This document shows, piece by piece, positions 1 to 45,293 of a stretch of DNA of 64,000 nt. Numbering within the stretch: the first letter of the stretch is position 1; the number at the start of each line of letters is the position of its first letter. A model generated the notes under the pieces. The model was not told the DNA's origin and ran no database searches. It saw nothing but the letters and a program-made list of their open reading frames with translations. The DNA is from a virus (lineage: Duplodnaviria; Heunggongvirae; Uroviricota; Caudoviricetes). The stretch is from positions 1-64,000 of the IMG/VR virus record IMGVR_UViG_3300045988_163275. One strand, given 5' to 3'. The position numbers and the translations under genes were made by a program.

Positions 1-2464
1 CATATGTATCCGTTGCCCTTCTGGCAAAAGCAGCCACATGCGCGGCGGTTAAAGTAATATCTTTTGAACCATCAAACTCAACCCCAGAAACCAGTCTTGG
101 CGTTTGCAGCTTTGTTGCTGTCAATGCGTTACCGTTCAGACTTGCAGACAGCTTGGTTCCAATAACCAGTTCGCCGGTTGCGTTATCAATAGCAAACGGT
201 CTTAATGTATTCCATCCACCATAAACATCACCTTGATTGGTAAGCAGCAGGTAAGTTTTAGCGCCATCATTACGCCATAATGCCCCATACTCCCCACCTA
301 TCATTCGAATCTGATTACCACCACGCGCTACAATTTCGTCTGTGGCAAAAAGTTTTTTGCACGACAAGTTATCGTTAACGATTAACGAATGAGACTCATA
401 AAAACCACGCCCACTCTTAAAATCAAGGATAACGTCCGCCGCGATACATTCAGTCGCTGGATTTGTTGCCCCAAACTTATAGGTCGTATCATTAACAACG
501 AGATCAGCACCAGGTGCGGATATTGACAGGCCATCTTCGATAAACGCAAAAACAGGGAAAGCAGCGCCATCAACATAGAACACAGAGCGCAAATCATCGC
601 CCTTATTACTCATCATTATTGAGTGGATGGCTCGTTCATTGTTTTGATATTGCCAGAACATTCCATAAGCATAACGCCCCCTGTCAGTCCAGCCACCAGG
701 CATAACAAATCCGTTAAACTCGCAGTTATTCATCGGATCGCCTGCGGTTCGCGTTGCCGTGGTGATAATGACCCTTGATGCCAGTTCGCTTACTGAGCCA
801 GCAGAACGCATAACAACAACAGGGTAATATTTTCCAGATGTTGCACCTGCAGGAGCGTTAACCCGCACATAACGCATACCACGCTTATCAGCAAAGTCTG
901 TTTTACTGACCGCGTTAATGTTGTTCAGGAAGCGTCCCTTATCGGGTATATCAGCGCCGTTCTGGTCTTTCTGCAGACGTTTCTCTGCATTGTCATAGGC
1001 TGATTTTACTGCCTTTGGCGTTGTCGCCAGCGTTTCAGACGTACTGTTGGTCGCACTGCTGAGCTGTACTATCCCCTTTTTCGTCGTACTTGCATCCTCA
1101 AGCGCCACGGCGGATGCAATATCCTCTGCCCGTTTTGCCGCTGTCTCAGAGCGTGTTGCCGCGGATTCTGCCGCATTTTTGCTCTGCGCAGCCGCCGTCG
1201 CACTGTCTGCCGCTTCCGTCGCCTTCGTTGATGCCGTTGTCGCACTCTCTGCTGCCGCTGACGCCTGGCGAGCGGCCTCATCTTTTGAAGATGACGCCGA
1301 GGAAGCTGAAACAGAGGCAGAGCTTGCAGATTCGGCTGCTGTCTCCTTAGAAGCAGCGGCATTGTCTTCTGAAGTCTTTGCATTGGTTTCAGAAGATTTT
1401 GCCGCCTCTGCTGACTTTTCCGCAGCTGTTGCCTGTTCCGTCGCCTCTGTCGCTTTAGCGGTGGCATTTGCCGCAGATAACGAAGCGCTTTCCGCAGACT
1501 TTTCTGCCGACGTTGCACTTGATGAAGCACTATCCGCGCTTATTGAGGCCGCGCTCGCTGACGTTTCTGCCACAGATTTAGAACTGTTTGCAGACAATGC
1601 ACTCTGTTCGGCAGCAGCTTCAGACGCTTTTGCGTTTGTCTCTGATGCTTTTGCTGCCTTACATGAATTTGCAGCTTCTGTAGCTGATGATGCTGCCGCG
1701 TTTGCACTCGATGAAGCGTTAGTCTCTGATAATTTAGCCGCATCCTTAGATGCAGAGGCACTGGACGCTGATGTGGCTGCCTCCGATGCTTTAGTCGACG
1801 CCACAGATGCTGATTTTGCTGCCGCTTCTTTTGCCGCTTCTGCGTTTGTTTCAGATTTTTCCGCAGCAGCTGCACTCTCACTCGCCGCACTTTGTGAAGA
1901 TACCGCAGCGGATGCACTTTGAGATGCCTGAGAGGCTTTTTCTACAGCAGTGTTGGCACTTTCTGCCGCAGCGACAGCACTGGCCGCCGCCTCCCGAGCT
2001 TTGTCTCCAGCGGCCTCAATCGCATCGGTGTTATTTTTATACCACTCAACGTTTTCGTTATGCTCGTTGACGATCTGCATTAGCGGCTTAACGGTCACTT
2101 CTGTACCGTCTTCACGCTCGATTGTCACATCATCCAGAGCGGTCAACCAACTGCGCATGGACTTGGAATCAGCCGACATACGCGACATTAGTGCAGTAAA
2201 GCGCGCACTAAACTGAGTTAAGTCGCCTTCATAGGTCGTAATGATTCGGCACGGAACTTTAGATTGAGTTTCGCCGGTATAAGGTTCTGAGAGGACAATG
2301 ACCGTATCACTGGTTACGCGCTTGACCTCATACAACTTATTGTCAGGACCAATGACAATCATGCCCGGTAACACGCCGTTTTCGGTCAAATTCCAACGTG
2401 TTCCGATGCCTGATATTGTGTCGCTTCCTTTTGTAAATGTAACAGTACCTTCCCTGTACCACAT
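1..2464 (-). CDS. side tail fiber protein (partial; C-terminal end runs off the window start)
   Basis: Absent from ORF track because it has no stop in the window. Minus-strand translation from ATG at 2464 (RBS AAGGAG) gives MWYREGTVTF..., a long Ala/Ser/Glu-rich repeat shaft, the fiber motif KKGIVQLSSATNSTSETLATTPKAVK and a distal LTATKLQTPRLVSGVEFDGSKDITL segment. Confidence 0.8.
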   Translation of the reverse strand, partial: MWYREGTVTFTKGSDTISGIGTRWNLTENGVLPGMIVIGPDNKLYEVKRVTSDTVIVLSEPYTGETQSKVPCRIITTYEGDLTQFSARFTALMSRMSADSKSMRSWLTALDDVTIEREDGTEVTVKPLMQIVNEHNENVEWYKNNTDAIEAAGDKAREAAASAVAAAESANTAVEKASQASQSASAAVSSQSAASESAAAAEKSETNAEAAKEAAAKSASVASTKASEAATSASSASASKDAAKLSETNASSSANAAASSATEAANSCKAAKASETNAKASEAAAEQSALSANSSKSVAETSASAASISADSASSSATSAEKSAESASLSAANATAKATEATEQATAAEKSAEAAKSSETNAKTSEDNAAASKETAAESASSASVSASSASSSKDEAARQASAAAESATTASTKATEAADSATAAAQSKNAAESAATRSETAAKRAEDIASAVALEDASTTKKGIVQLSSATNSTSETLATTPKAVKSAYDNAEKRLQKDQNGADIPDKGRFLNNINAVSKTDFADKRGMRYVRVNAPAGATSGKYYPVVVMRSAGSVSELASRVIITTATRTAGDPMNNCEFNGFVMPGGWTDRGRYAYGMFWQYQNNERAIHSIMMSNKGDDLRSVFYVDGAAFPVFAFIEDGLSISAPGADLVVNDTTYKFGATNPATECIAADVILDFKSGRGFYESHSLIVNDNLSCKKLFATDEIVARGGNQIRMIGGEYGALWRNDGAKTYLLLTNQGDVYGGWNTLRPFAIDNATGELVIGTKLSASLNGNALTATKLQTPRLVSGVEFDGSKDITLTAAHVAAFARRATDTY

Positions 2465-2508
2465 GTTCTTTTTCACTCCTTGAAGTGTGGGCGTCCTTGC
2501 CCACACAA

Positions 2509-2529
2509 ATAGGTATATACTTACTTATT
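2509..2529. repeat. TAAGTA-type AT-rich palindrome (family copy)
   Basis: ataggtatatacttacttatt; between J stop and stf start, followed by a GC hairpin. Confidence 0.5.
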
Positions 2530-2599
2530 ATCCATGATACAAAATCCTTTTGCACTAAGAAAACACGCTATATACATTGCTGCTCATTATTCCTATCAA

Positions 2600-39480: not shown

Positions 39481-39684
39481 ATGAAGACCTATGATCGCAA
39501 CCGTAACACTATCACTACCGGCAGCCGAGTGATGGTGGCAACGAATGGTGCAACGGGAGTCATCAAGGAAATCTGCGGAGAAGGCAAATCAGAAGAACAA
39601 TTACGCCGCTCTGACTGCGTGTCTATCGAAGGTGTGGAAGATCTGTTCTGCCCAATGGATTTAGTTCGCCTGGGATTCCAATAA
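39481..39684 (+). CDS. hypothetical small protein
   Basis: 67 aa with strong RBS AGGAGG; terminated by palindrome plus hairpin. Confidence 0.45.
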   Translation: MKTYDRNRNTITTGSRVMVATNGATGVIKEICGEGKSEEQLRRSDCVSIEGVEDLFCPMDLVRLGFQ

Positions 39685-39704
39685 TTACACCACTAATTAA
39701 ACAA

Positions 39705-39745
39705 ATTGTTTAAGGCCACAAATAATGGCCTTATCTGGCTTACGG
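39705..39745. terminator. palindrome plus hairpin between convergent genes
   Basis: TTAAACAAATTGTTTAAGG followed by hairpin AAGGCCACAAATAATGGCCTT, between 3' ends of 39481..39684 (+) and 39740..40444 (-). Confidence 0.4.
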
Positions 39746-40444
39746 AACAGCAGTAATCAGATCGCAAATGCCTGTTTTAGTTAAATCACTATTTAGCTTC
39801 TGAAAATTGGCATTCAGCATTGCGGTATGTATTCGATTCTCAAGTTCAAAGAAGAGATCGATCTTGCCCTCTTTGGCTGCCACCTTCTTCCAAATATTCA
39901 CCTGGTCATCTGCGATACGACTTGCGCAGGTGAACAAGAACGAACTCCCTCTGGGAAGGGATGTCGTGCTGTAGTATTCACCGTCAACTTCAATATACTT
40001 AGCTCGGAATGACTCCAGAGTTAGCTTTTTACCGCTCTCAGCCTGCTTTGTGTCTGCCTTGCTTGTCTTTTCCTGAACTTCAGGCTGTTTCTGCACAGGC
40101 TTTGGTGTCTCATTGACCACCGCAGTGCTGGCCGAACCATCCAAACTCTTGAGGCCATTAATTTGGATTAGATAAGCCAACTCCAGAGTCTTATCACCAG
40201 TGAGTTTTCCACGCATACTTACCCATTGACGCTGAACCGTCTTTAAGGCGTCTGCGTCCCCCGGGTTTGCTTTGAGTGCGTTGGAATAGGTAGAGCTAAG
40301 TTGTTCGTCTAATTTTGACAGGCGTTCGTTATCGCAGATTTTGTGTTCGATTTCTGCCGAAGCCTTTTGGCAGTCAAAGCTGGCTGCAAATACAGCCGGC
40401 GATGCCACCAACAATGATGCCAGTAGGATATTTTTCATATTCAC
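39740..40444 (-). CDS. secreted protein with lysozyme-inhibitor-like (LprI/DUF1311-type) N-terminal domain
   Basis: Signal peptide (MNMKNILLASLLVASPAVFA), then FDCQKASAEIEHKICDNERLSKLDEQLSSTYSNALK...QRQWVSMRG, resembling the Cys-containing DUF1311 pattern; family assignment from memory. Confidence 0.45.
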   Translation of the reverse strand: MNMKNILLASLLVASPAVFAASFDCQKASAEIEHKICDNERLSKLDEQLSSTYSNALKANPGDADALKTVQRQWVSMRGKLTGDKTLELAYLIQINGLKSLDGSASTAVVNETPKPVQKQPEVQEKTSKADTKQAESGKKLTLESFRAKYIEVDGEYYSTTSLPRGSSFLFTCASRIADDQVNIWKKVAAKEGKIDLFFELENRIHTAMLNANFQKLNSDLTKTGICDLITAVP

Positions 40445-40476
40445 TCCATAAATATAAAAGCGCCTGACTATAGCAC

Positions 40477-40692
40477 TTAACCGATTGCTTCTCTCATCTG
40501 ATTGTGAAGCTCTTTCAGCCCATTACGTACCGCGTTCATGATACGTTCCAGGTATTGGTATCTGGGGTTTGGCACCGTTGGCCAACCGGCATACCACGGA
40601 TCGTCACCAAACAGACTCAGCAGTTCGTTACCGACACCGAAACAGCAGCAACTTTCTTTTACGTCATCAGCGTTTTCTGCCTCGTCCCACAT
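40477..40692 (-). CDS. hypothetical small protein
   Basis: 71 aa ORF in the early cluster. Confidence 0.3.
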   Translation of the reverse strand: MWDEAENADDVKESCCCFGVGNELLSLFGDDPWYAGWPTVPNPRYQYLERIMNAVRNGLKELHNQMREAIG

Positions 40693-40738
40693 ATTGCGGG
40701 CCTGCTCTGCGTCGATTTCTCTCTCTCCCTGCGCAACT

Positions 40739-40978
40739 TTATGATTTCGGATTTGACGAAAAGCAGGTTTGCGTCGTTGTCATCGTCGACCGTACTGAAG
40801 TGGCACACTGAATTTGGCCGTCTGTAATGGGCAGATCCGGCAACTGTTTAAAAACTTCCATCTGCTCATGGATACGCAGAAACCACCTTGCCAGCTCCAT
40901 CTGCTCACCGCGGGTGAGGGGATTATTCAGCGGGGACTTAACAAAAGCGGAGACTCGCTCGACAAGCAGATCATTCAT
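40739..40978 (-). CDS. hypothetical small protein
   Basis: Start at MNDLLVERVS, ATGA-coupled to the upstream gene. Confidence 0.35.
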   Translation of the reverse strand: MNDLLVERVSAFVKSPLNNPLTRGEQMELARWFLRIHEQMEVFKQLPDLPITDGQIQCATSVRSTMTTTQTCFSSNPKS

Positions 40979-41664
40979 GCCGCGCACCTCTCTGCTTTCT
41001 CCTGCAATTCGCGAACGAACTCGACCAAAGAGCCACCTGGCGGGATCTGGCATTCCTCAACCAACTGGAAGTATATGTCTGCGGCCGCGCGTGTGTTCGA
41101 GCCTTTGTTTAGCTGCTCTTCGCGCAGCGCATCACGTTCATTAATCAAACGGACGCACTCGCCGTTACGCTGATCCACAACGGCCTCAAGTTCAGCGATA
41201 CGTTCGCCAGGAGTCTTACCTTCTTTACGTTGAATGGTGACGGTAAACTCACCCATTTCAGGAACGTCGTACCCCAGCTCCAGGTAGTTTCTGGCCCCGC
41301 TACGAACAAACTCACCGGCAAACATGGTTGCGAACATCGCAGAGGCCATTTCACCTTTAAACAGAGACTCCAAATCTAACGGAGTACCCGCAGCCAGAGC
41401 CGTTTTTTCTGTATCAATTGCAGACATGAATGCATCAAATTCACGAGCACGTTTTTCCAGGTCTCTCCATTGCTCGCTCCAACGTTTAGCAACGAAGTCT
41501 ATGAATGTTTTCGCGGATTCATCATAATCCCCTTCAAACTTAACAGTGCCTTTGTCAATGATGATCTGGTCTACTGCTTCCTCTGCATAACCTCTCATTA
41601 CAAATTTGAAAGGAAAGTCGGCATGGCTTTTGACGTTAAAACGCTCTAACGGAAGATTGCTCAT
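40975..41664 (-). CDS. hypothetical protein
   Basis: 229 aa; TAAGTA-type palindrome upstream; no recognisable motif. Confidence 0.45.
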   Translation of the reverse strand: MSNLPLERFNVKSHADFPFKFVMRGYAEEAVDQIIIDKGTVKFEGDYDESAKTFIDFVAKRWSEQWRDLEKRAREFDAFMSAIDTEKTALAAGTPLDLESLFKGEMASAMFATMFAGEFVRSGARNYLELGYDVPEMGEFTVTIQRKEGKTPGERIAELEAVVDQRNGECVRLINERDALREEQLNKGSNTRAAADIYFQLVEECQIPPGGSLVEFVRELQEKAERCAA

Positions 41665-41706: not shown

Positions 41707-41728
41707 ATTAGGTAAGTATTTACCTCTC
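41707..41728. repeat. TAAGTA-type palindrome
   Basis: attaggtaagtatttacctctc; between the methyltransferase stop and 41664 start. Confidence 0.5.
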
Positions 41729-43412
41729 ATTTAACGCGTTTAAAAACGTATACGCTGACAGTAATCCCGGTGTCTTCAAACATGTTAGTAAACGACTTCC
41801 CTTTGGCATAAACGTAATTATCCAGCGTCATCCAGTTTAGAATTGGCGCGTCGCCCGGCAGCACTGCTACCAGACGCCCACCGACTTTCAGATGTCCCAG
41901 CGCGGCCAACGTGTGCTCTCTGTGACGGCCAAGAGAGTAGGGCGGGTTCATGACGATTTTGTCGAACTGATAACCTGCGTTGTCCTCAGACCACTTCATG
42001 AAGTCGCAGCAGACCGTATTTGTGTACCCCTTGCCAAGCAGGATATCAGCGAAGAGAGGTGCGACTTCTATGCAGGTAACGTCTTCCGGATTGGCGTCGA
42101 TGCAGGCCAGCAGATCTCCGCGCCCGGCTTCAGGCTCCAGCAGCTTCTCACCTGGCTTCAGCTCGATGGCTCTGGCAACGTACTCCGCTATCAAACGCGG
42201 GGTAGGGTAGAACTGGTGTGATTTTGTATCCGGTATTAAGCCGGTGGCCACAATCGTATTGAGCGTATGGCCGATCTCATACGGGAACTGCCAGTGCTTG
42301 TTCTCCTGCACGCCGCCAATAAAGCTCAGTGTACGCTCCAGCTCTTCCACCTGTGACTTCTGAAGACCGGAATCAGAGAAGTACCATACGCGTTTGTCAT
42401 TGCCAGATCGCCCGTCGCGAAGCGCAGTACGCACCGGCTCGGAGATCGTCTTCTGGATTAACCCGAACTGTTTTGGTGCCCGTGTTTTGGGCGCAGTACG
42501 ACATGGAGCCGGGATTGCAGCGGGCATACTGTAAGCCAGCACCTCATTCAGCTTCCAGGCTACGTCAGGATGTATTTCAAAGTGAACGTTGCCGTTCTTA
42601 AACATCTTCACACGCATCAGGTTTCCGTCGACATTCATCCAGTCGCCGGTCTGGCAGTCATTTGCTCGATACGCAGCTGACAGCATCTCGGCCGTGCGGT
42701 TGATGGTGATAAATTCTTTGTGTGCAAAGAAATGCAACATGACGCGCAGGTCGTCTATGTAATCCTCTTTCCGGTAGTTAACGCTGACGCTGTCCCGCCA
42801 GAAATCGGAAATGCAGTCGGCGATGATCAGACGCTCGCTGAAGCCGTTCGTCTTATTGGTCTTGTGAGCAGGACTCAACGCCTTAAACAAGCCATACACG
42901 CGCTCAGAGAGATATTTGTGCCTGTCATTCAGCAAATTAAGCATCGTTGGTATGACCGTTTCTGCTTTGAACTCAGGTACACCAACGAACTCTTTAACCT
43001 TCATTTGATAGCCAGTTCTGTCAGTCTTGATCGTTTCCTGCTTGCCCTCGATAAACTGTTCACGCCACTCGTCGCGGCGGGATGCTGGCATGATCAGCAG
43101 AACGTTGGTCATATCCGTGACCTTCTTCCAGTACTCGGCCCAGATATTTTGTTTCACCCATTCCAGGTCGACTTTGTCCAGCCAGGTTCTGTTAAAGCGT
43201 GTGCGCTCGTCGTCCGGCCGGTGGTTAAGTCGCAGTAGACGGTTAATCATGTTGTGGCGTTCGTCGCCATAAACGAAGTCGTGAACCTTATTCATGAACG
43301 CAATCTCTTTCTCGCATTCGGCCACAATTTCGTGGATAACATTCATTTCCTGCCGGTAGTCAATACCGGTGTCTGGAGTGATAGAGTCAATGATGGAAAG
43401 GGCTGTATTCAT
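41727..43412 (-). CDS. DNA methyltransferase (N6-adenine/N4-cytosine type) with large N-terminal domain
   Basis: C-terminal methyltransferase motifs: motif I (LLEPEAGRGDLL) and motif IV (VMNPPYS); about 390-aa N-terminal region of unknown function; true ATG at MNTALSIIDS; promoter plus palindrome module upstream. Confidence 0.7.
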   Translation of the reverse strand: MNTALSIIDSITPDTGIDYRQEMNVIHEIVAECEKEIAFMNKVHDFVYGDERHNMINRLLRLNHRPDDERTRFNRTWLDKVDLEWVKQNIWAEYWKKVTDMTNVLLIMPASRRDEWREQFIEGKQETIKTDRTGYQMKVKEFVGVPEFKAETVIPTMLNLLNDRHKYLSERVYGLFKALSPAHKTNKTNGFSERLIIADCISDFWRDSVSVNYRKEDYIDDLRVMLHFFAHKEFITINRTAEMLSAAYRANDCQTGDWMNVDGNLMRVKMFKNGNVHFEIHPDVAWKLNEVLAYSMPAAIPAPCRTAPKTRAPKQFGLIQKTISEPVRTALRDGRSGNDKRVWYFSDSGLQKSQVEELERTLSFIGGVQENKHWQFPYEIGHTLNTIVATGLIPDTKSHQFYPTPRLIAEYVARAIELKPGEKLLEPEAGRGDLLACIDANPEDVTCIEVAPLFADILLGKGYTNTVCCDFMKWSEDNAGYQFDKIVMNPPYSLGRHREHTLAALGHLKVGGRLVAVLPGDAPILNWMTLDNYVYAKGKSFTNMFEDTGITVSVYVFKRVK

Positions 43413-43421
43413 GATTGCACC

Positions 43422-43482
43422 ATTAAACAAATTGTTTTCTTATTGGTGTTATTTTCTCAAAGCTAAAAAGGCGTAAAAGCAG
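43422..43482 (-). promoter_or_regulatory. promoter plus palindrome module
   Basis: Minus strand: GCTTTTACGCCTTTTT...GAAAATAACACCAATAAGAAAACAATTTGTTTAATGG, upstream of the methyltransferase gene. Confidence 0.55.
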
Positions 43483-44333: not shown

Positions 44334-45293
44334 ATGTTTGGTAATCTTTTCAAAACGGAAGAAACTAAGGCCCGGGAGGGCTTGGAGTCTCATTATCAGA
44401 AAGTCATGAGCTTCGTTGCTGAAAATGATCTACATGAAGCATGGGAAAAAACACGCAATATCATTTTTCGAAATATGGAAGTTAGAAGCTACATCACGCA
44501 AAACGGCGCGTTCGATCGTAACGATTTTTACTATAAGTCAGCCAAAGAGAAGCTTATTCAAAGCGCCTTCACTTCATACCTACTCATAAAAGTTTTACCT
44601 CAGTTCTATGAAATGCATCTCACCACTTTGAAAAGAAAAGAAAAAACACTCACAACACAGGATGAATACGGGGTCTGGAACTTTGACAAGTGGTTTGATG
44701 AAGTAGACTACTTTTATGACAAGGTAGTAAAAGAGAAAGTTTACGATTGGATCGAAGAGAACACAGGCCGGCTCAACAACCTTTGGTTGGCAGAGTCGGA
44801 GGACAAGAATGCCTGGGGGCGGCCAGTTTACTTTAAATTCCAGTTGCCTGAACAATTTGATCGCTGCGCAATAAATCACATTATGACGGTGGTAGACAAT
44901 ACACCAGAACCTGAATTACCTGAGTACACTTCGCTACTGACCGGGCACGAATATGAGCATTTTGTCGCTGGGGAGTTTATGAAGTATGGATCCGACACCC
45001 AAGTAACTAAGGGCAGCGGCGATCACGGTCTGGATATCCTTGTAACCTATAGAGAAGTTCGAATGGCTGTTCAGTGCAAACACTACCAGTCTAAAGTAGG
45101 CAACAAAGCTATTCAGGAAGCATTTTCCGCGAAACAGTTCTACGATTGCTCCCTCGCAATAGTAGTCAGCAACAGCGAGTTTACCCCTCACGCCAGACAA
45201 GCAGCCAAAAAACTGGACGTTTATCTGTATCACCATGAAGATATACACTTAATAATAGACGCCATTAATAATTGGCTGGATGCGCCGGAGTGA
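44334..45293 (+). CDS. Mrr-type restriction endonuclease domain protein with novel N-terminal domain
   Basis: C-terminal PD-(D/E)xK Mrr-catalytic pattern (GHEYEHFVAGEFMKYG...GSGDHGLDILVT...VQCKHYQSKVGNKAIQEAFSA...VVSNSEFTPHARQAAKK); aromatic-rich N-terminal region of about 200 aa. Confidence 0.65.
   Translation: MFGNLFKTEETKAREGLESHYQKVMSFVAENDLHEAWEKTRNIIFRNMEVRSYITQNGAFDRNDFYYKSAKEKLIQSAFTSYLLIKVLPQFYEMHLTTLKRKEKTLTTQDEYGVWNFDKWFDEVDYFYDKVVKEKVYDWIEENTGRLNNLWLAESEDKNAWGRPVYFKFQLPEQFDRCAINHIMTVVDNTPEPELPEYTSLLTGHEYEHFVAGEFMKYGSDTQVTKGSGDHGLDILVTYREVRMAVQCKHYQSKVGNKAIQEAFSAKQFYDCSLAIVVSNSEFTPHARQAAKKLDVYLYHHEDIHLIIDAINNWLDAPE

What the first reader, a model, noticed from the sequence alone, without database searches (positions are those of the whole stretch)
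39740..40444. Secreted protein with a lysozyme-inhibitor-like (DUF1311/LprI-type) domain in the early region
Signal peptide followed by a Cys-containing helical segment (FDCQKASAEIEHKICDNERLSKLDEQLSSTYSNALK ... QRQWVSMRG) that resembles the DUF1311/LprI family as I remember it. A periplasmic protein of this type could modulate envelope hydrolases, timing of lysis, or entry of competing phages. It is convergent with a small plus-strand gene and separated from it by a palindrome plus hairpin.
Basis: partly seen in the sequence, partly recalled or inferred. Interest (0 to 1): 0.4.

Follow-up and report, generated by a model that had tools for sequence, protein, structure and literature searches.

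The report
Secreted LprI-like phage-plasmid accessory protein
This is a real gene for a secreted protein of an SSU5-like E. coli phage-plasmid; public annotation already labels it "lysozyme inhibitor LprI family", but only part of that domain is present and nothing here shows it inhibits lysozyme or controls lysis.

Summary
Window 39743-40438 (-) encodes a 232-aa protein. The true start is ATG 40438, not GTG 40444.

**Architecture**
- Sec signal peptide (residues 1-18).
- Helical Cys-x11-Cys domain (19-98) that passes Pfam PF07007 (LprI/DUF1311): 24.5 bits against a cut-off of 22.
- Variable Lys/Ser/Ala/Thr/Val/Glu-rich linker (99-138).
- A rare, two-cysteine C-terminal domain (139-232) that no family or solved fold matches.

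The gene is convergent with ydfZ and ends in a conserved hairpin terminator.

**Already catalogued.** The window is an SSU5-like phage-plasmid. RefSeq already names near-identical (99.6%) proteins "lysozyme inhibitor LprI family protein". The domain call is therefore right but not new.

**Function is not supported.**
- Only profile positions 1-69 of 106 match, and the second cysteine pair is missing.
- M. tuberculosis LprI owes its name to a protein that also carries an MliC domain, which is absent here.
- The gene is accessory and lies about 58 kb from the lysis cassette in SSU5.
- The C-terminal domain is the most constrained part (dN/dS 0.06).
- Relatives occur in virulent T4-like phages and in small mobile islands.

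**Best guess, inferred only.** It is a periplasmic binding protein that neutralises incoming peptidoglycan hydrolases. Interest is low to moderate.

The parts
39743..40438 (-). Coding sequence of the 232-aa secreted LprI-like protein (stop codon TAA at 39740-39742).
   Evidence: ORF list and sequence. 99.6% identical to RefSeq proteins named 'lysozyme inhibitor LprI family protein'. PHROG 4675 matches full length. dN/dS is 0.16.
40385..40438 (-). Signal peptide, residues 1-18 (MKNILLASLLVASPAVFA|A).
   Evidence: Read from the sequence: K2, a hydrophobic core with mean Kyte-Doolittle 2.36, and V-x-A before the invariant ASFDC. There is no lipobox. No dedicated signal-peptide predictor was available.
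40145..40384 (-). N-terminal helical LprI/DUF1311-like domain, residues 19-98, with Cys23 and Cys35.
40025..40144 (-). Low-complexity linker rich in Lys, Ser, Ala, Thr, Val and Glu, residues 99-138.
   Evidence: Variable in sequence and length between alleles. pLDDT is below 50. dN/dS is 0.59.
39743..40024 (-). C-terminal domain, residues 139-232, with conserved Cys171 and Cys225. Function is unknown.
   Evidence: dN/dS is 0.06. Only 12 hits among 1.84 billion representative proteins, two of which I judge spurious. No Pfam hit. No significant Foldseek match in the PDB. The model shows a short helix, a beta-hairpin and two long helices at pLDDT 65-86.
39697..39733 (-). Intrinsic-terminator-like element of the gene: the hairpin AAGGCCA-n7-TGGCCTT (39733-39713 on the - strand) followed by AAACAATTTGTTTAA.
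   Evidence: Inverted repeats. RNA fold -14.6 kcal/mol, z -2.1. The hairpin is conserved in all lineages, including those without ydfZ, where a clean T-run follows it.
40439..40510 (-). Conserved leader. It holds the Shine-Dalgarno GGAG (40447-40444) and TGCTATAGT (40475-40467), which resembles an extended -10 element and overlaps a weak terminator-like hairpin (40478-40458).
   Evidence: The block is conserved even where the upstream gene differs. The terminator-like call comes from the scan. Promoter activity is inferred only.
39481..39684 (+). Convergent ydfZ gene (67 aa). It is a neighbour, not shown to be functionally linked.
   Evidence: PF14001 YdfZ at 103 bits. Annotated as ydfZ in SSU5 and in plasmids. 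It is absent downstream of the gene in the 78%-identity lineage.

Best explanation
**What is shown.** This is an accessory gene of an SSU5-like phage-plasmid, and it looks like a moron-type insert. It travels as a small cassette of conserved leader, ORF and terminator. It encodes a Sec-exported, soluble periplasmic protein of about 23.7 kDa. The protein has a shortened LprI/DUF1311 helical module (one Cys pair), a flexible linker, and a family-specific two-cysteine C-terminal module.

**What is inferred.** It acts by protein-protein binding in the periplasm. The most likely target is a peptidoglycan-cleaving enzyme that enters from outside, such as the tail or virion lysozyme of a superinfecting phage or a T6SS muramidase effector. 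It would then protect the infected or lysogenic cell in the way T4 Spackle or T6SS immunity proteins do. Regulating the phage's own endolysin is less likely. The C-terminal module probably supplies target specificity or a second contact.

The confidence figure refers to this mechanism. The structural description alone I hold at about 0.85.
For: **Export and architecture.**

**Real, constrained gene.** dN/dS is 0.16 overall and 0.06 in the C-domain.

**Accessory status.** The gene region matches 177 plasmid records, whereas the portal gene matches 450. In Escherichia the counts are 27 against 204.

**Cassette-like conservation.** The leader and terminator are kept across lineages that have different neighbours.

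**Spread on mobile elements.**
- Relatives lie in virulent T4-like phages, in early or hyperplastic regions. One sits 2 kb from an annotated spackle gene.
- Others lie in small mobile islands with serine recombinases.

**Literature on DUF1311/LprI proteins.**
- Etsi4 of EHEC rescues the periplasmic toxicity of the effector Etse4, which its authors describe as cell-wall-targeting.
- In Salmonella Dublin and Pantoea, LprI-domain proteins are encoded next to lysozyme-like, LysM/transglycosylase or pesticin effectors and are predicted to be their immunity proteins.

Against: - No binding or inhibition data exist for this protein or any close relative.
- Only positions 1-69 of the 106-position LprI profile match, and the second Cys pair is missing.
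- There is no detectable similarity to Etsi4.
- No peptidoglycan-hydrolase gene lies next to it in any context examined.
- The strongest purifying selection falls on the uncharacterised C-domain. The protein shows no sign of the diversifying selection an arms-race inhibitor might carry.
- ScwA, a periplasmic LprI-domain protein, had no effect on lysozyme sensitivity.
- It is unknown whether the gene is expressed during lysogeny.
Confidence: 0.3

Rival explanations
1. The LprI-like module is only a structural or oligomerisation handle. The conserved C-terminal module carries an unrelated periplasmic function. Examples would be binding an outer- or inner-membrane receptor to block adsorption or DNA entry, or another envelope role that has nothing to do with muralytic enzymes.
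For: - The C-domain is the most constrained part (dN/dS 0.06 against 0.16).
- In P0059 and P0064 the C-domain is joined to a different, lipoprotein-type N-terminus.
- Across T4-like phages the N-module is constant while the C-module changes.
- No hydrolase gene is linked in any context.
- PF07007 itself has no demonstrated activity according to the ScwA paper.
Against: - No positive evidence points to any alternative target.
- The C-domain has no homologue or fold match of known function.
- The literature on DUF1311 proteins points repeatedly to cell-wall enzymes.
Confidence: 0.3
2. It works like Salmonella ScwA. It would be a free periplasmic LprI-domain protein that changes the level or stability of host peptidoglycan hydrolases (for example MltD) and so remodels the wall of the infected or lysogenic cell.
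For: ScwA is periplasmic, is not a lipoprotein, carries four cysteines that form DsbA-dependent disulfides, and positively controls MltD levels. The window protein is also soluble, exported and has four cysteines.
Against: - In ScwA the LprI domain is C-terminal and complete (residues 185-271 of 275). Here it is N-terminal and truncated.
- No ScwA-like sequence appeared among the homologues.
- Virulent T4-like phages carrying relatives have little obvious use for slow wall homeostasis.
Confidence: 0.12
3. It regulates the phage-plasmid's own lysis. As a periplasmic inhibitor of the SSU5-type endolysin, it would set lysis timing.
For: It has a periplasmic location and an LprI-family label.
Against: - In SSU5 the holin, endolysin and spanin genes lie about 58 kb away.
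- The gene is absent from most Escherichia SSU5-like plasmids that keep the portal gene.
- Relatives sit in unrelated phages and non-phage islands, away from lysis genes.
Confidence: 0.07
4. It is a genuine inhibitor of animal c-type lysozyme, as the database name suggests, and protects the lysogen in a host.
For: It carries the PGAP name and a PF07007 hit.
Against: - M. tuberculosis LprI also carries an MliC domain, which the ScwA paper describes as sufficient for lysozyme resistance. No MliC (PF09864) hit appears here even at E <= 10.
- It is not a lipoprotein.
- A ScwA deletion did not change lysozyme sensitivity.
- Relatives in strictly lytic phages do not fit a host-colonisation role.
Confidence: 0.05

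Closest known systems
Pfam PF07007 (LprI / DUF1311), represented by the solved structure 3GI7 (PP0307 of Pseudomonas putida)
   Same: - Secreted, helical, with the hallmark N-terminal motif FDC-x11-C...LD..L...Y...Q..W...R.
- The score is above the gathering threshold.
- The predicted fold superposes at 2.1 A over 74 residues.
   Different: - Only profile positions 1-69 of 106 match.
- The loop carrying the second Cys pair is missing.
- The domain is followed by a linker and a 94-residue domain that is not in Pfam.
Mycobacterium tuberculosis lipoprotein LprI (Rv1541c), a lysozyme inhibitor
   Same: It shares the PF07007 domain, which gave the family its name.
   Different: LprI is a lipoprotein and has an additional MliC domain (PF09864), to which the ScwA paper attributes the inhibition. 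The window protein has neither a lipobox nor MliC.
DUF1311-type T6SS immunity proteins: Etsi4 of EHEC, and the predicted Psi15 of Pantoea and SED_RS06230 of Salmonella Dublin
   Same: They are small Sec-exported PF07007 proteins. They are thought, and for Etsi4 shown by co-expression rescue, to neutralise periplasm-acting cell-wall effectors.
   Different: - Those genes sit immediately next to their effector. This gene has no effector neighbour.
- Etsi4 matches profile positions 16-106 and shows no alignable similarity to this family.
- Those proteins lack the extra C-domain.
Salmonella ScwA (SL1344_0490)
   Same: It is a free periplasmic protein with an LprI domain and four cysteines.
   Different: Its LprI domain is C-terminal and complete, it is chromosomal and regulates MltD levels, and no sequence relationship was detected here.
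T4 Spackle (Sp), a periplasmic inhibitor of the gp5 tail lysozyme that gives superinfection exclusion.
   Same: This is a functional analogy only: a small, exported, helical phage protein made from a non-structural region. A relative of the window protein in Klebsiella phage VAC36 lies 2 kb from an annotated spackle gene.
   Different: There is no sequence or family relationship. Pfam and PHROGs return only LprI and unknown-function families. The activity is untested.

Membership tests
Pfam PF07007 LprI/DUF1311 | The whole-protein score reaches the curated gathering threshold. | tested here: met
   24.5 bits against a cut-off of 22, E = 3.7e-5. Close alleles score 27-29 bits. Five T4-like phage relatives score 22.3-28.1 bits. 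Distant enterobacterial relatives score about 17 bits, below threshold, over the same profile segment.
Pfam PF07007 LprI/DUF1311 | The complete domain is present (about 106 profile positions). | tested here: not met
   Every member of this family matches only profile positions 1 to about 70-76. Etsi4, by contrast, matches positions 16-106.
Pfam PF07007 LprI/DUF1311 | Conserved cysteines are present (four, forming two disulfides, as Pfam is quoted in the ScwA paper). | tested here: inconclusive
   The first pair (Cys23, Cys35) is present and invariant. There is no cysteine between residues 36 and 170. The other two, Cys171 and Cys225, lie in the separate C-domain. Disulfide pairing cannot be determined with these tools.
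Pfam PF07007 LprI/DUF1311 | The helical-bundle fold is like 3GI7. | tested here: met
M. tuberculosis LprI-type lysozyme inhibitor | An MliC domain (PF09864) is present. | tested here: not met
   A Pfam scan at E <= 10 returns only PF07007.
M. tuberculosis LprI-type lysozyme inhibitor | A lipoprotein signal (lipobox with Cys at +1) is present. | tested here: not met
   The signal peptide ends V-F-A|A-S-F-D-C, and the first Cys is five residues into the mature protein.
M. tuberculosis LprI-type lysozyme inhibitor | The protein binds and inhibits lysozyme. | not testable with these tools
   This needs purified protein and a lysozyme activity or binding assay.
DUF1311-type T6SS immunity proteins | The gene is encoded next to a cognate periplasm-acting effector, or in a T6SS island. 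| tested here: not met
   The neighbours are ydfZ, small proteins of unknown function and a DNA methyltransferase. No T6SS genes appear in any homologue context. The genuine arrangement in EDL933 is shown for comparison.
DUF1311-type T6SS immunity proteins | The sequence is related to a validated member (Etsi4). | tested here: not met
   hhalign of the family profile against Etsi4 aligns only the signal peptide, with probability 1%.
Phage lysis-cassette accessory (antiholin or endolysin regulator) | The gene lies in or beside the holin/endolysin/spanin cluster. | tested here: not met
   In SSU5 the lysis genes are at 27.5-29.0 kb and the gene is at 86.9 kb. None is seen near it in the window.
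Known anti-phage defence proteins (PADLOC) | The protein matches a defence-system model. | tested here: not met
   No hit at E <= 0.1 for the protein or its three upstream neighbours.

The most novel reading that the evidence does not exclude
The proteins that begin ASFDC-x11-C form a modular family encoded by phages and other mobile elements. The family is shared by temperate SSU5-like phage-plasmids, virulent T4-like phages of Escherichia, Klebsiella and Aeromonas, and small recombinase islands. In it, a constant shortened LprI module is coupled through a flexible linker to exchangeable C-terminal modules. On this reading the family is a previously unrecognised class of periplasmic superinfection-exclusion or anti-T6SS immunity factors. 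The two-cysteine C-domain of the window protein would be a new target-recognition fold.
Probability: 0.15. Interest if true: 0.6.

Novelty: already known. Interest (0 to 1): 0.25.

Why it matters
As it stands, this is a correctly recognised but already catalogued domain hit, and it changes nothing.

The useful lesson is a caution. The name "lysozyme inhibitor LprI family protein" spreads through phage and plasmid annotation from a two-domain mycobacterial protein. There, the inhibition is attributed to the other domain (MliC). The name should not be read as a function here.

If the protein did neutralise incoming muralytic enzymes, it would add a new exclusion or immunity factor. That factor would be shared between phage-plasmids common in clinical Enterobacteriaceae and T4-like phages used in therapy. 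It could affect phage host range and competition between bacteria.

Tried and rejected
**Sequence searches against solved structures.** Searches with the single protein, the family profile A2, the wider profile A4 and Etsi4 found nothing meaningful.

**Structure prediction.**
- The first AF2 model, from a shallow alignment that kept the signal peptide, was too poor to use (pLDDT 46).
- The second model used the mature protein plus four distant homologues and reached pLDDT 67.7.

**Fold searches.**
- Foldseek against the PDB gave no significant hit.
- BFVD returned only Aeromonas-phage proteins, one of them named DUF1311.
- The AFDB library was not available.

**Homologue searches.**
- The exhaustive search with the C-domain gave 12 hits. 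Two of them, P0058 and P0061, are long repetitive proteins that I judge spurious.
- The genome-collection scan found only two loci.
- The viral-contig scan found only close SSU5-like copies.

**Family libraries.**
- NCBIfam gave only insignificant hits. The best was the A1S_1983 'putative colistin resistance' family at 17 bits against a cut-off of 150, and I did not treat it as evidence.
- PADLOC gave no hit.
- Neighbouring genes gave only unknown-function PHROGs.
- The SSU5 endolysin and Etse4 have no Pfam family, so the enzyme classes could not be compared.

**Other dead ends.**
- The Sethi et al. 2016 paper on LprI is not in the library. The statements about MliC rest on the ScwA paper.
- I rejected the idea that the AT-rich palindrome is a protein-binding site. 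It coincides with the T-rich tail of the terminator and is not conserved in the 78%-identity lineage.

Full report
**1. What is there**

The window is part of an SSU5-like phage-plasmid of E. coli.
- The 1.4 kb around the finding is 88.7% identical to Salmonella phage SSU5.
- It is 99.9% identical to E. coli plasmids such as CP057419. In all, 177 PLSDB records match, almost all of them non-mobilizable.

- The GTG at 40444 overlaps the Shine-Dalgarno GGAG (40447-40444).
- The start is therefore ATG 40438, which gives 232 aa, the same length as in public annotation.
- The quoted peptide segments are present.
- Residues 1-18 form a typical Sec signal. They have K2, a hydrophobic core with mean Kyte-Doolittle 2.36, and V-F-A|A.
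- There is no lipobox. The mature protein is predicted to be soluble and periplasmic, at about 23.7 kDa. No dedicated signal-peptide predictor was available.

**2. Domain assignment**

Pfam gives a single hit, PF07007 (LprI, formerly DUF1311).
- E = 3.7e-5, 24.5 bits against a gathering score of 22.
- Protein residues 23-77 match profile positions 1-69 of 106.

The assignment is robust for four reasons.
- Close alleles score 27-29 bits.
- Relatives in T4-like phages, only 24-32% identical, pass the threshold independently on the same profile segment.
- Distant enterobacterial relatives give consistent hits at about 17 bits, below threshold.

The domain is nevertheless incomplete.
- No member of the family matches the last third of the profile.
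- The only cysteines in this part are Cys23 and Cys35.

PGAP already names identical or near-identical proteins "lysozyme inhibitor LprI family protein" or "DUF1311 domain-containing protein". PHROGs files the protein in family 4675, of unknown function.

**3.

Alignments of close and distant relatives (A1, A2, A4) show four parts:
- the signal peptide;
- the helical N-domain (19-98) with the invariant mature N-terminus ASFDC;
- a linker (99-138), rich in Lys, Ser, Ala, Thr, Val and Glu, that varies in sequence and length and is predicted disordered;
- a conserved C-terminal domain (139-232) with the motif DG..YST and two conserved cysteines, Cys171 and Cys225.

Codon analysis of 20 distinct alleles gave the following dN/dS values.

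| Region | dN/dS |
|---|---|
| N-domain | 0.16 |
| Linker | 0.59 |
| C-domain | 0.06 |

That domain is rare.
- An exhaustive HMMER search of 1.84 billion representative proteins gave 12 hits. Two of them are repetitive proteins that I judge spurious.
- It has no Pfam family.
- It has no significant Foldseek match in the PDB.
- In the predicted viral structure set, the only matches are Aeromonas-phage proteins, one of them named DUF1311.
- The model shows a short helix, a beta-hairpin and two long helices.

**4. Distribution and context**

*Within SSU5-like plasmids the gene is accessory.* The table compares records matched by the window's portal gene with records matched by the 1.4-kb query around the gene.

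| Genus | Portal gene | Gene region |
|---|---|---|
| All records | 450 | 177 |
| Escherichia | 204 | 27 |
| Enterobacter | 89 | 84 |
| Salmonella | 49 | 42 |
| Citrobacter | 25 | 22 |
| Yersinia | 62 | 0 |

The two queries differ in conservation, so these counts are approximate.

*Position in the element.*
- The gene lies in the non-structural arm, among small unknown genes. These are downstream of a DUF4942/N6-methyltransferase gene and near nucleotide-metabolism genes.
- "Early region" is therefore plausible, but timing was not tested.
- In SSU5 the holin, endolysin and spanin genes are about 58 kb away.

*The gene moves as a cassette.*
- About 70 nt upstream of the ATG is conserved, even in the 78%-identity lineage whose upstream gene is different.
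- This block includes GGAG and TGCTATAGT, which resembles an extended -10 element.
- The downstream hairpin AAGGCCAC...GTGGCCTT plus a T-rich run is conserved in all lineages. That includes the lineages without ydfZ, where a clean T-run follows it.
- Leader, ORF and terminator therefore appear to move together. Promoter function is inferred only.

- Both are real. The fold is modest: -14.6 kcal/mol, z -2.1.
- They are best read as the gene's intrinsic terminator, with the palindrome forming its tail.

*Relatives outside SSU5-like elements.*
- Yersinia enterocolitica: a homologue lies in an island of about 11 kb with two serine recombinases and an HTH regulator. It follows a small lipoprotein gene and a small membrane-protein gene.
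- Rosenbergiella: a homologue lies on a 4.4-kb contig with a resolvase-like gene.
- Virulent T4-like phages: tblastn finds relatives in 113 phage records, nearly all of them T4-like phages of Escherichia (Krischvirus), Klebsiella (Marfavirus) and Aeromonas.
- In those phages the genes sit in early or hyperplastic regions, not beside lysis genes. One lies between the primase and dCTPase genes, 2 kb from an annotated spackle gene. Another is an opposite-strand insert among baseplate genes.
- In the T4-like relatives the N-module is strongly conserved, but the C-module is not. The ZPAH1 C-module is homologous to that of the window protein (hhalign P = 5e-5 over 77 columns, including both Cys). 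The VAC36 C-module is only partly homologous. The 65.2, D3 and kaaroe C-modules are not detectably related.
- Conversely, P0059 and P0064 join the C-domain to a different N-terminus of lipoprotein type.

**5. What the name does and does not imply**

Evidence that the name should not be read as a function:
- According to the ScwA paper, M. tuberculosis LprI carries a second domain, MliC (PF09864). That paper says MliC has been shown to be sufficient for lysozyme resistance.
- The same paper says PF07007 is annotated "lysozyme inhibitor" with no experimental evidence yet for such a role.
- ScwA itself is periplasmic and has an LprI domain. It did not affect lysozyme sensitivity, but it did control MltD levels.
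- The window protein has no MliC hit even at E <= 10.

Evidence that DUF1311/LprI proteins do deal with wall-active enzymes, from T6SS work:
- Etsi4 of EHEC rescues the periplasmic toxicity of Etse4.
- Predicted immunity proteins with this domain are encoded next to LysM/transglycosylase, lysozyme-like and pesticin effectors in Salmonella Dublin and Pantoea.

The family of the window protein shows no alignable similarity to Etsi4, and it has no effector neighbour. The real arrangement in EDL933 is shown.

**6. Mechanism**

*Shown.* This is an exported, constrained, two-module protein encoded by an accessory cassette on mobile elements and phages.

*Inferred.* It works by binding something in the periplasm.

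My preferred reading (about 0.3) is neutralisation of an incoming peptidoglycan-cleaving enzyme. That enzyme could be a superinfecting phage's tail lysozyme or a T6SS muramidase. This would make the protein a functional analogue of T4 Spackle or of T6SS immunity proteins. Three observations favour it:
- the family is linked to wall-active toxins in the literature;
- the gene is dispensable;
- it occurs in both temperate and virulent phages, which favours a role during infection over host colonisation.

An equally weighted rival (0.3) is that the LprI-like module is only a scaffold and the conserved C-domain does something unrelated to muralytic enzymes. The selection pattern and the modular exchange of domains fit this rival.

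Less likely readings:

| Reading | Confidence |
|---|---|
| ScwA-like control of host hydrolase levels | 0.12 |
| Regulation of the phage's own endolysin or lysis timing | 0.07 |
| True inhibition of animal lysozyme | 0.05 |

The endolysin reading is contradicted by the lack of linkage and by the gene's accessory status. The lysozyme reading fails on the missing MliC domain, the missing lipid anchor and the presence of relatives in lytic phages.

**7. Verdict**

- The family assignment is supported but partial, and it is already present in public annotation.
- The functional interpretation is untested, and the lysis-timing part of it is disfavoured.
- Novelty is low.
- The residual interest lies in the uncharacterised, strongly constrained C-domain, and in the modular family shared by phage-plasmids and T4-like phages.

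Noticed in passing
window 40439-40510 (- strand): About 70 nt of leader upstream of the gene is conserved, even in a lineage whose upstream gene differs. It contains TGCTATAGT (40475-40467), which resembles an extended -10 element. That element overlaps a weak terminator-like hairpin (40478-40458) lying just after the stop codon of the upstream ORF.
   Followed up: partly
window 40480-40692 and 40978-41664 (- strand), with the overlapping ORF 40742-41053: The 71-aa and 229-aa ORFs match different parts (positions 217-285 and 11-103) of one 287-position PHROG, 3451. This suggests a split or rearranged gene upstream of the LprI-like gene. In SSU5 a 183-aa protein and a phosphohydrolase gene occupy this position instead.
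   Followed up: partly
protein P0066 (E. coli, 119 aa), relative to window 39743-41053: This is a natural fusion. The N-terminal part of the 104-aa ORF (40742-41053) is joined in frame to the last 58 residues of the LprI-like protein. In other words, some E. coli elements carry a deletion variant that removes most of the gene.
   Followed up: no
window 41727-43430 (-) and 44334-45293 (+): A 567-aa DUF4942/N6-adenine methyltransferase-like protein (PHROG 6263) lies near a + strand gene. In the near-identical plasmid pYLPI6a that gene is annotated as a restriction endonuclease. Together they may be a restriction-modification or anti-restriction module of the phage-plasmid.
   Followed up: no
L002 2400-13500 (Yersinia enterocolitica chromosome): An island of about 11 kb is bounded by two serine recombinases. 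It carries a 675-aa ATPase with 160-aa and 301-aa partners, a 585-aa protein and an HTH regulator. It also carries a small operon of lipoprotein, membrane protein and the LprI-like homologue P0063. It may be a defence island.
   Followed up: partly
L006 12665-13885 (plasmid pYLPI6a, NZ_CP074043.1): In this near-identical plasmid an ISKox3 (ISL3-family) transposase gene is inserted immediately upstream of ydfZ. This shows that the ydfZ/LprI-like junction tolerates insertions.
   Followed up: no
plasmid hits H95-H114 (Pseudomonas aeruginosa megaplasmids, 177-513 kb): About 120 Pseudomonas plasmid records encode unannotated proteins that match only the N-terminal LprI-like module (query residues 22 to about 149, 26-40% identity). 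The module is therefore widespread on other mobile elements with different C-terminal parts.
   Followed up: no
window 1-2555 (- strand): Several frames here are open and compositionally biased (Ala/Ser/Asp-rich on +, Arg/Gln/Lys-rich on -). This is probably a long coiled-coil tail-fibre gene that runs off the left end of the window, so the ORF tool does not list it.
   Followed up: no
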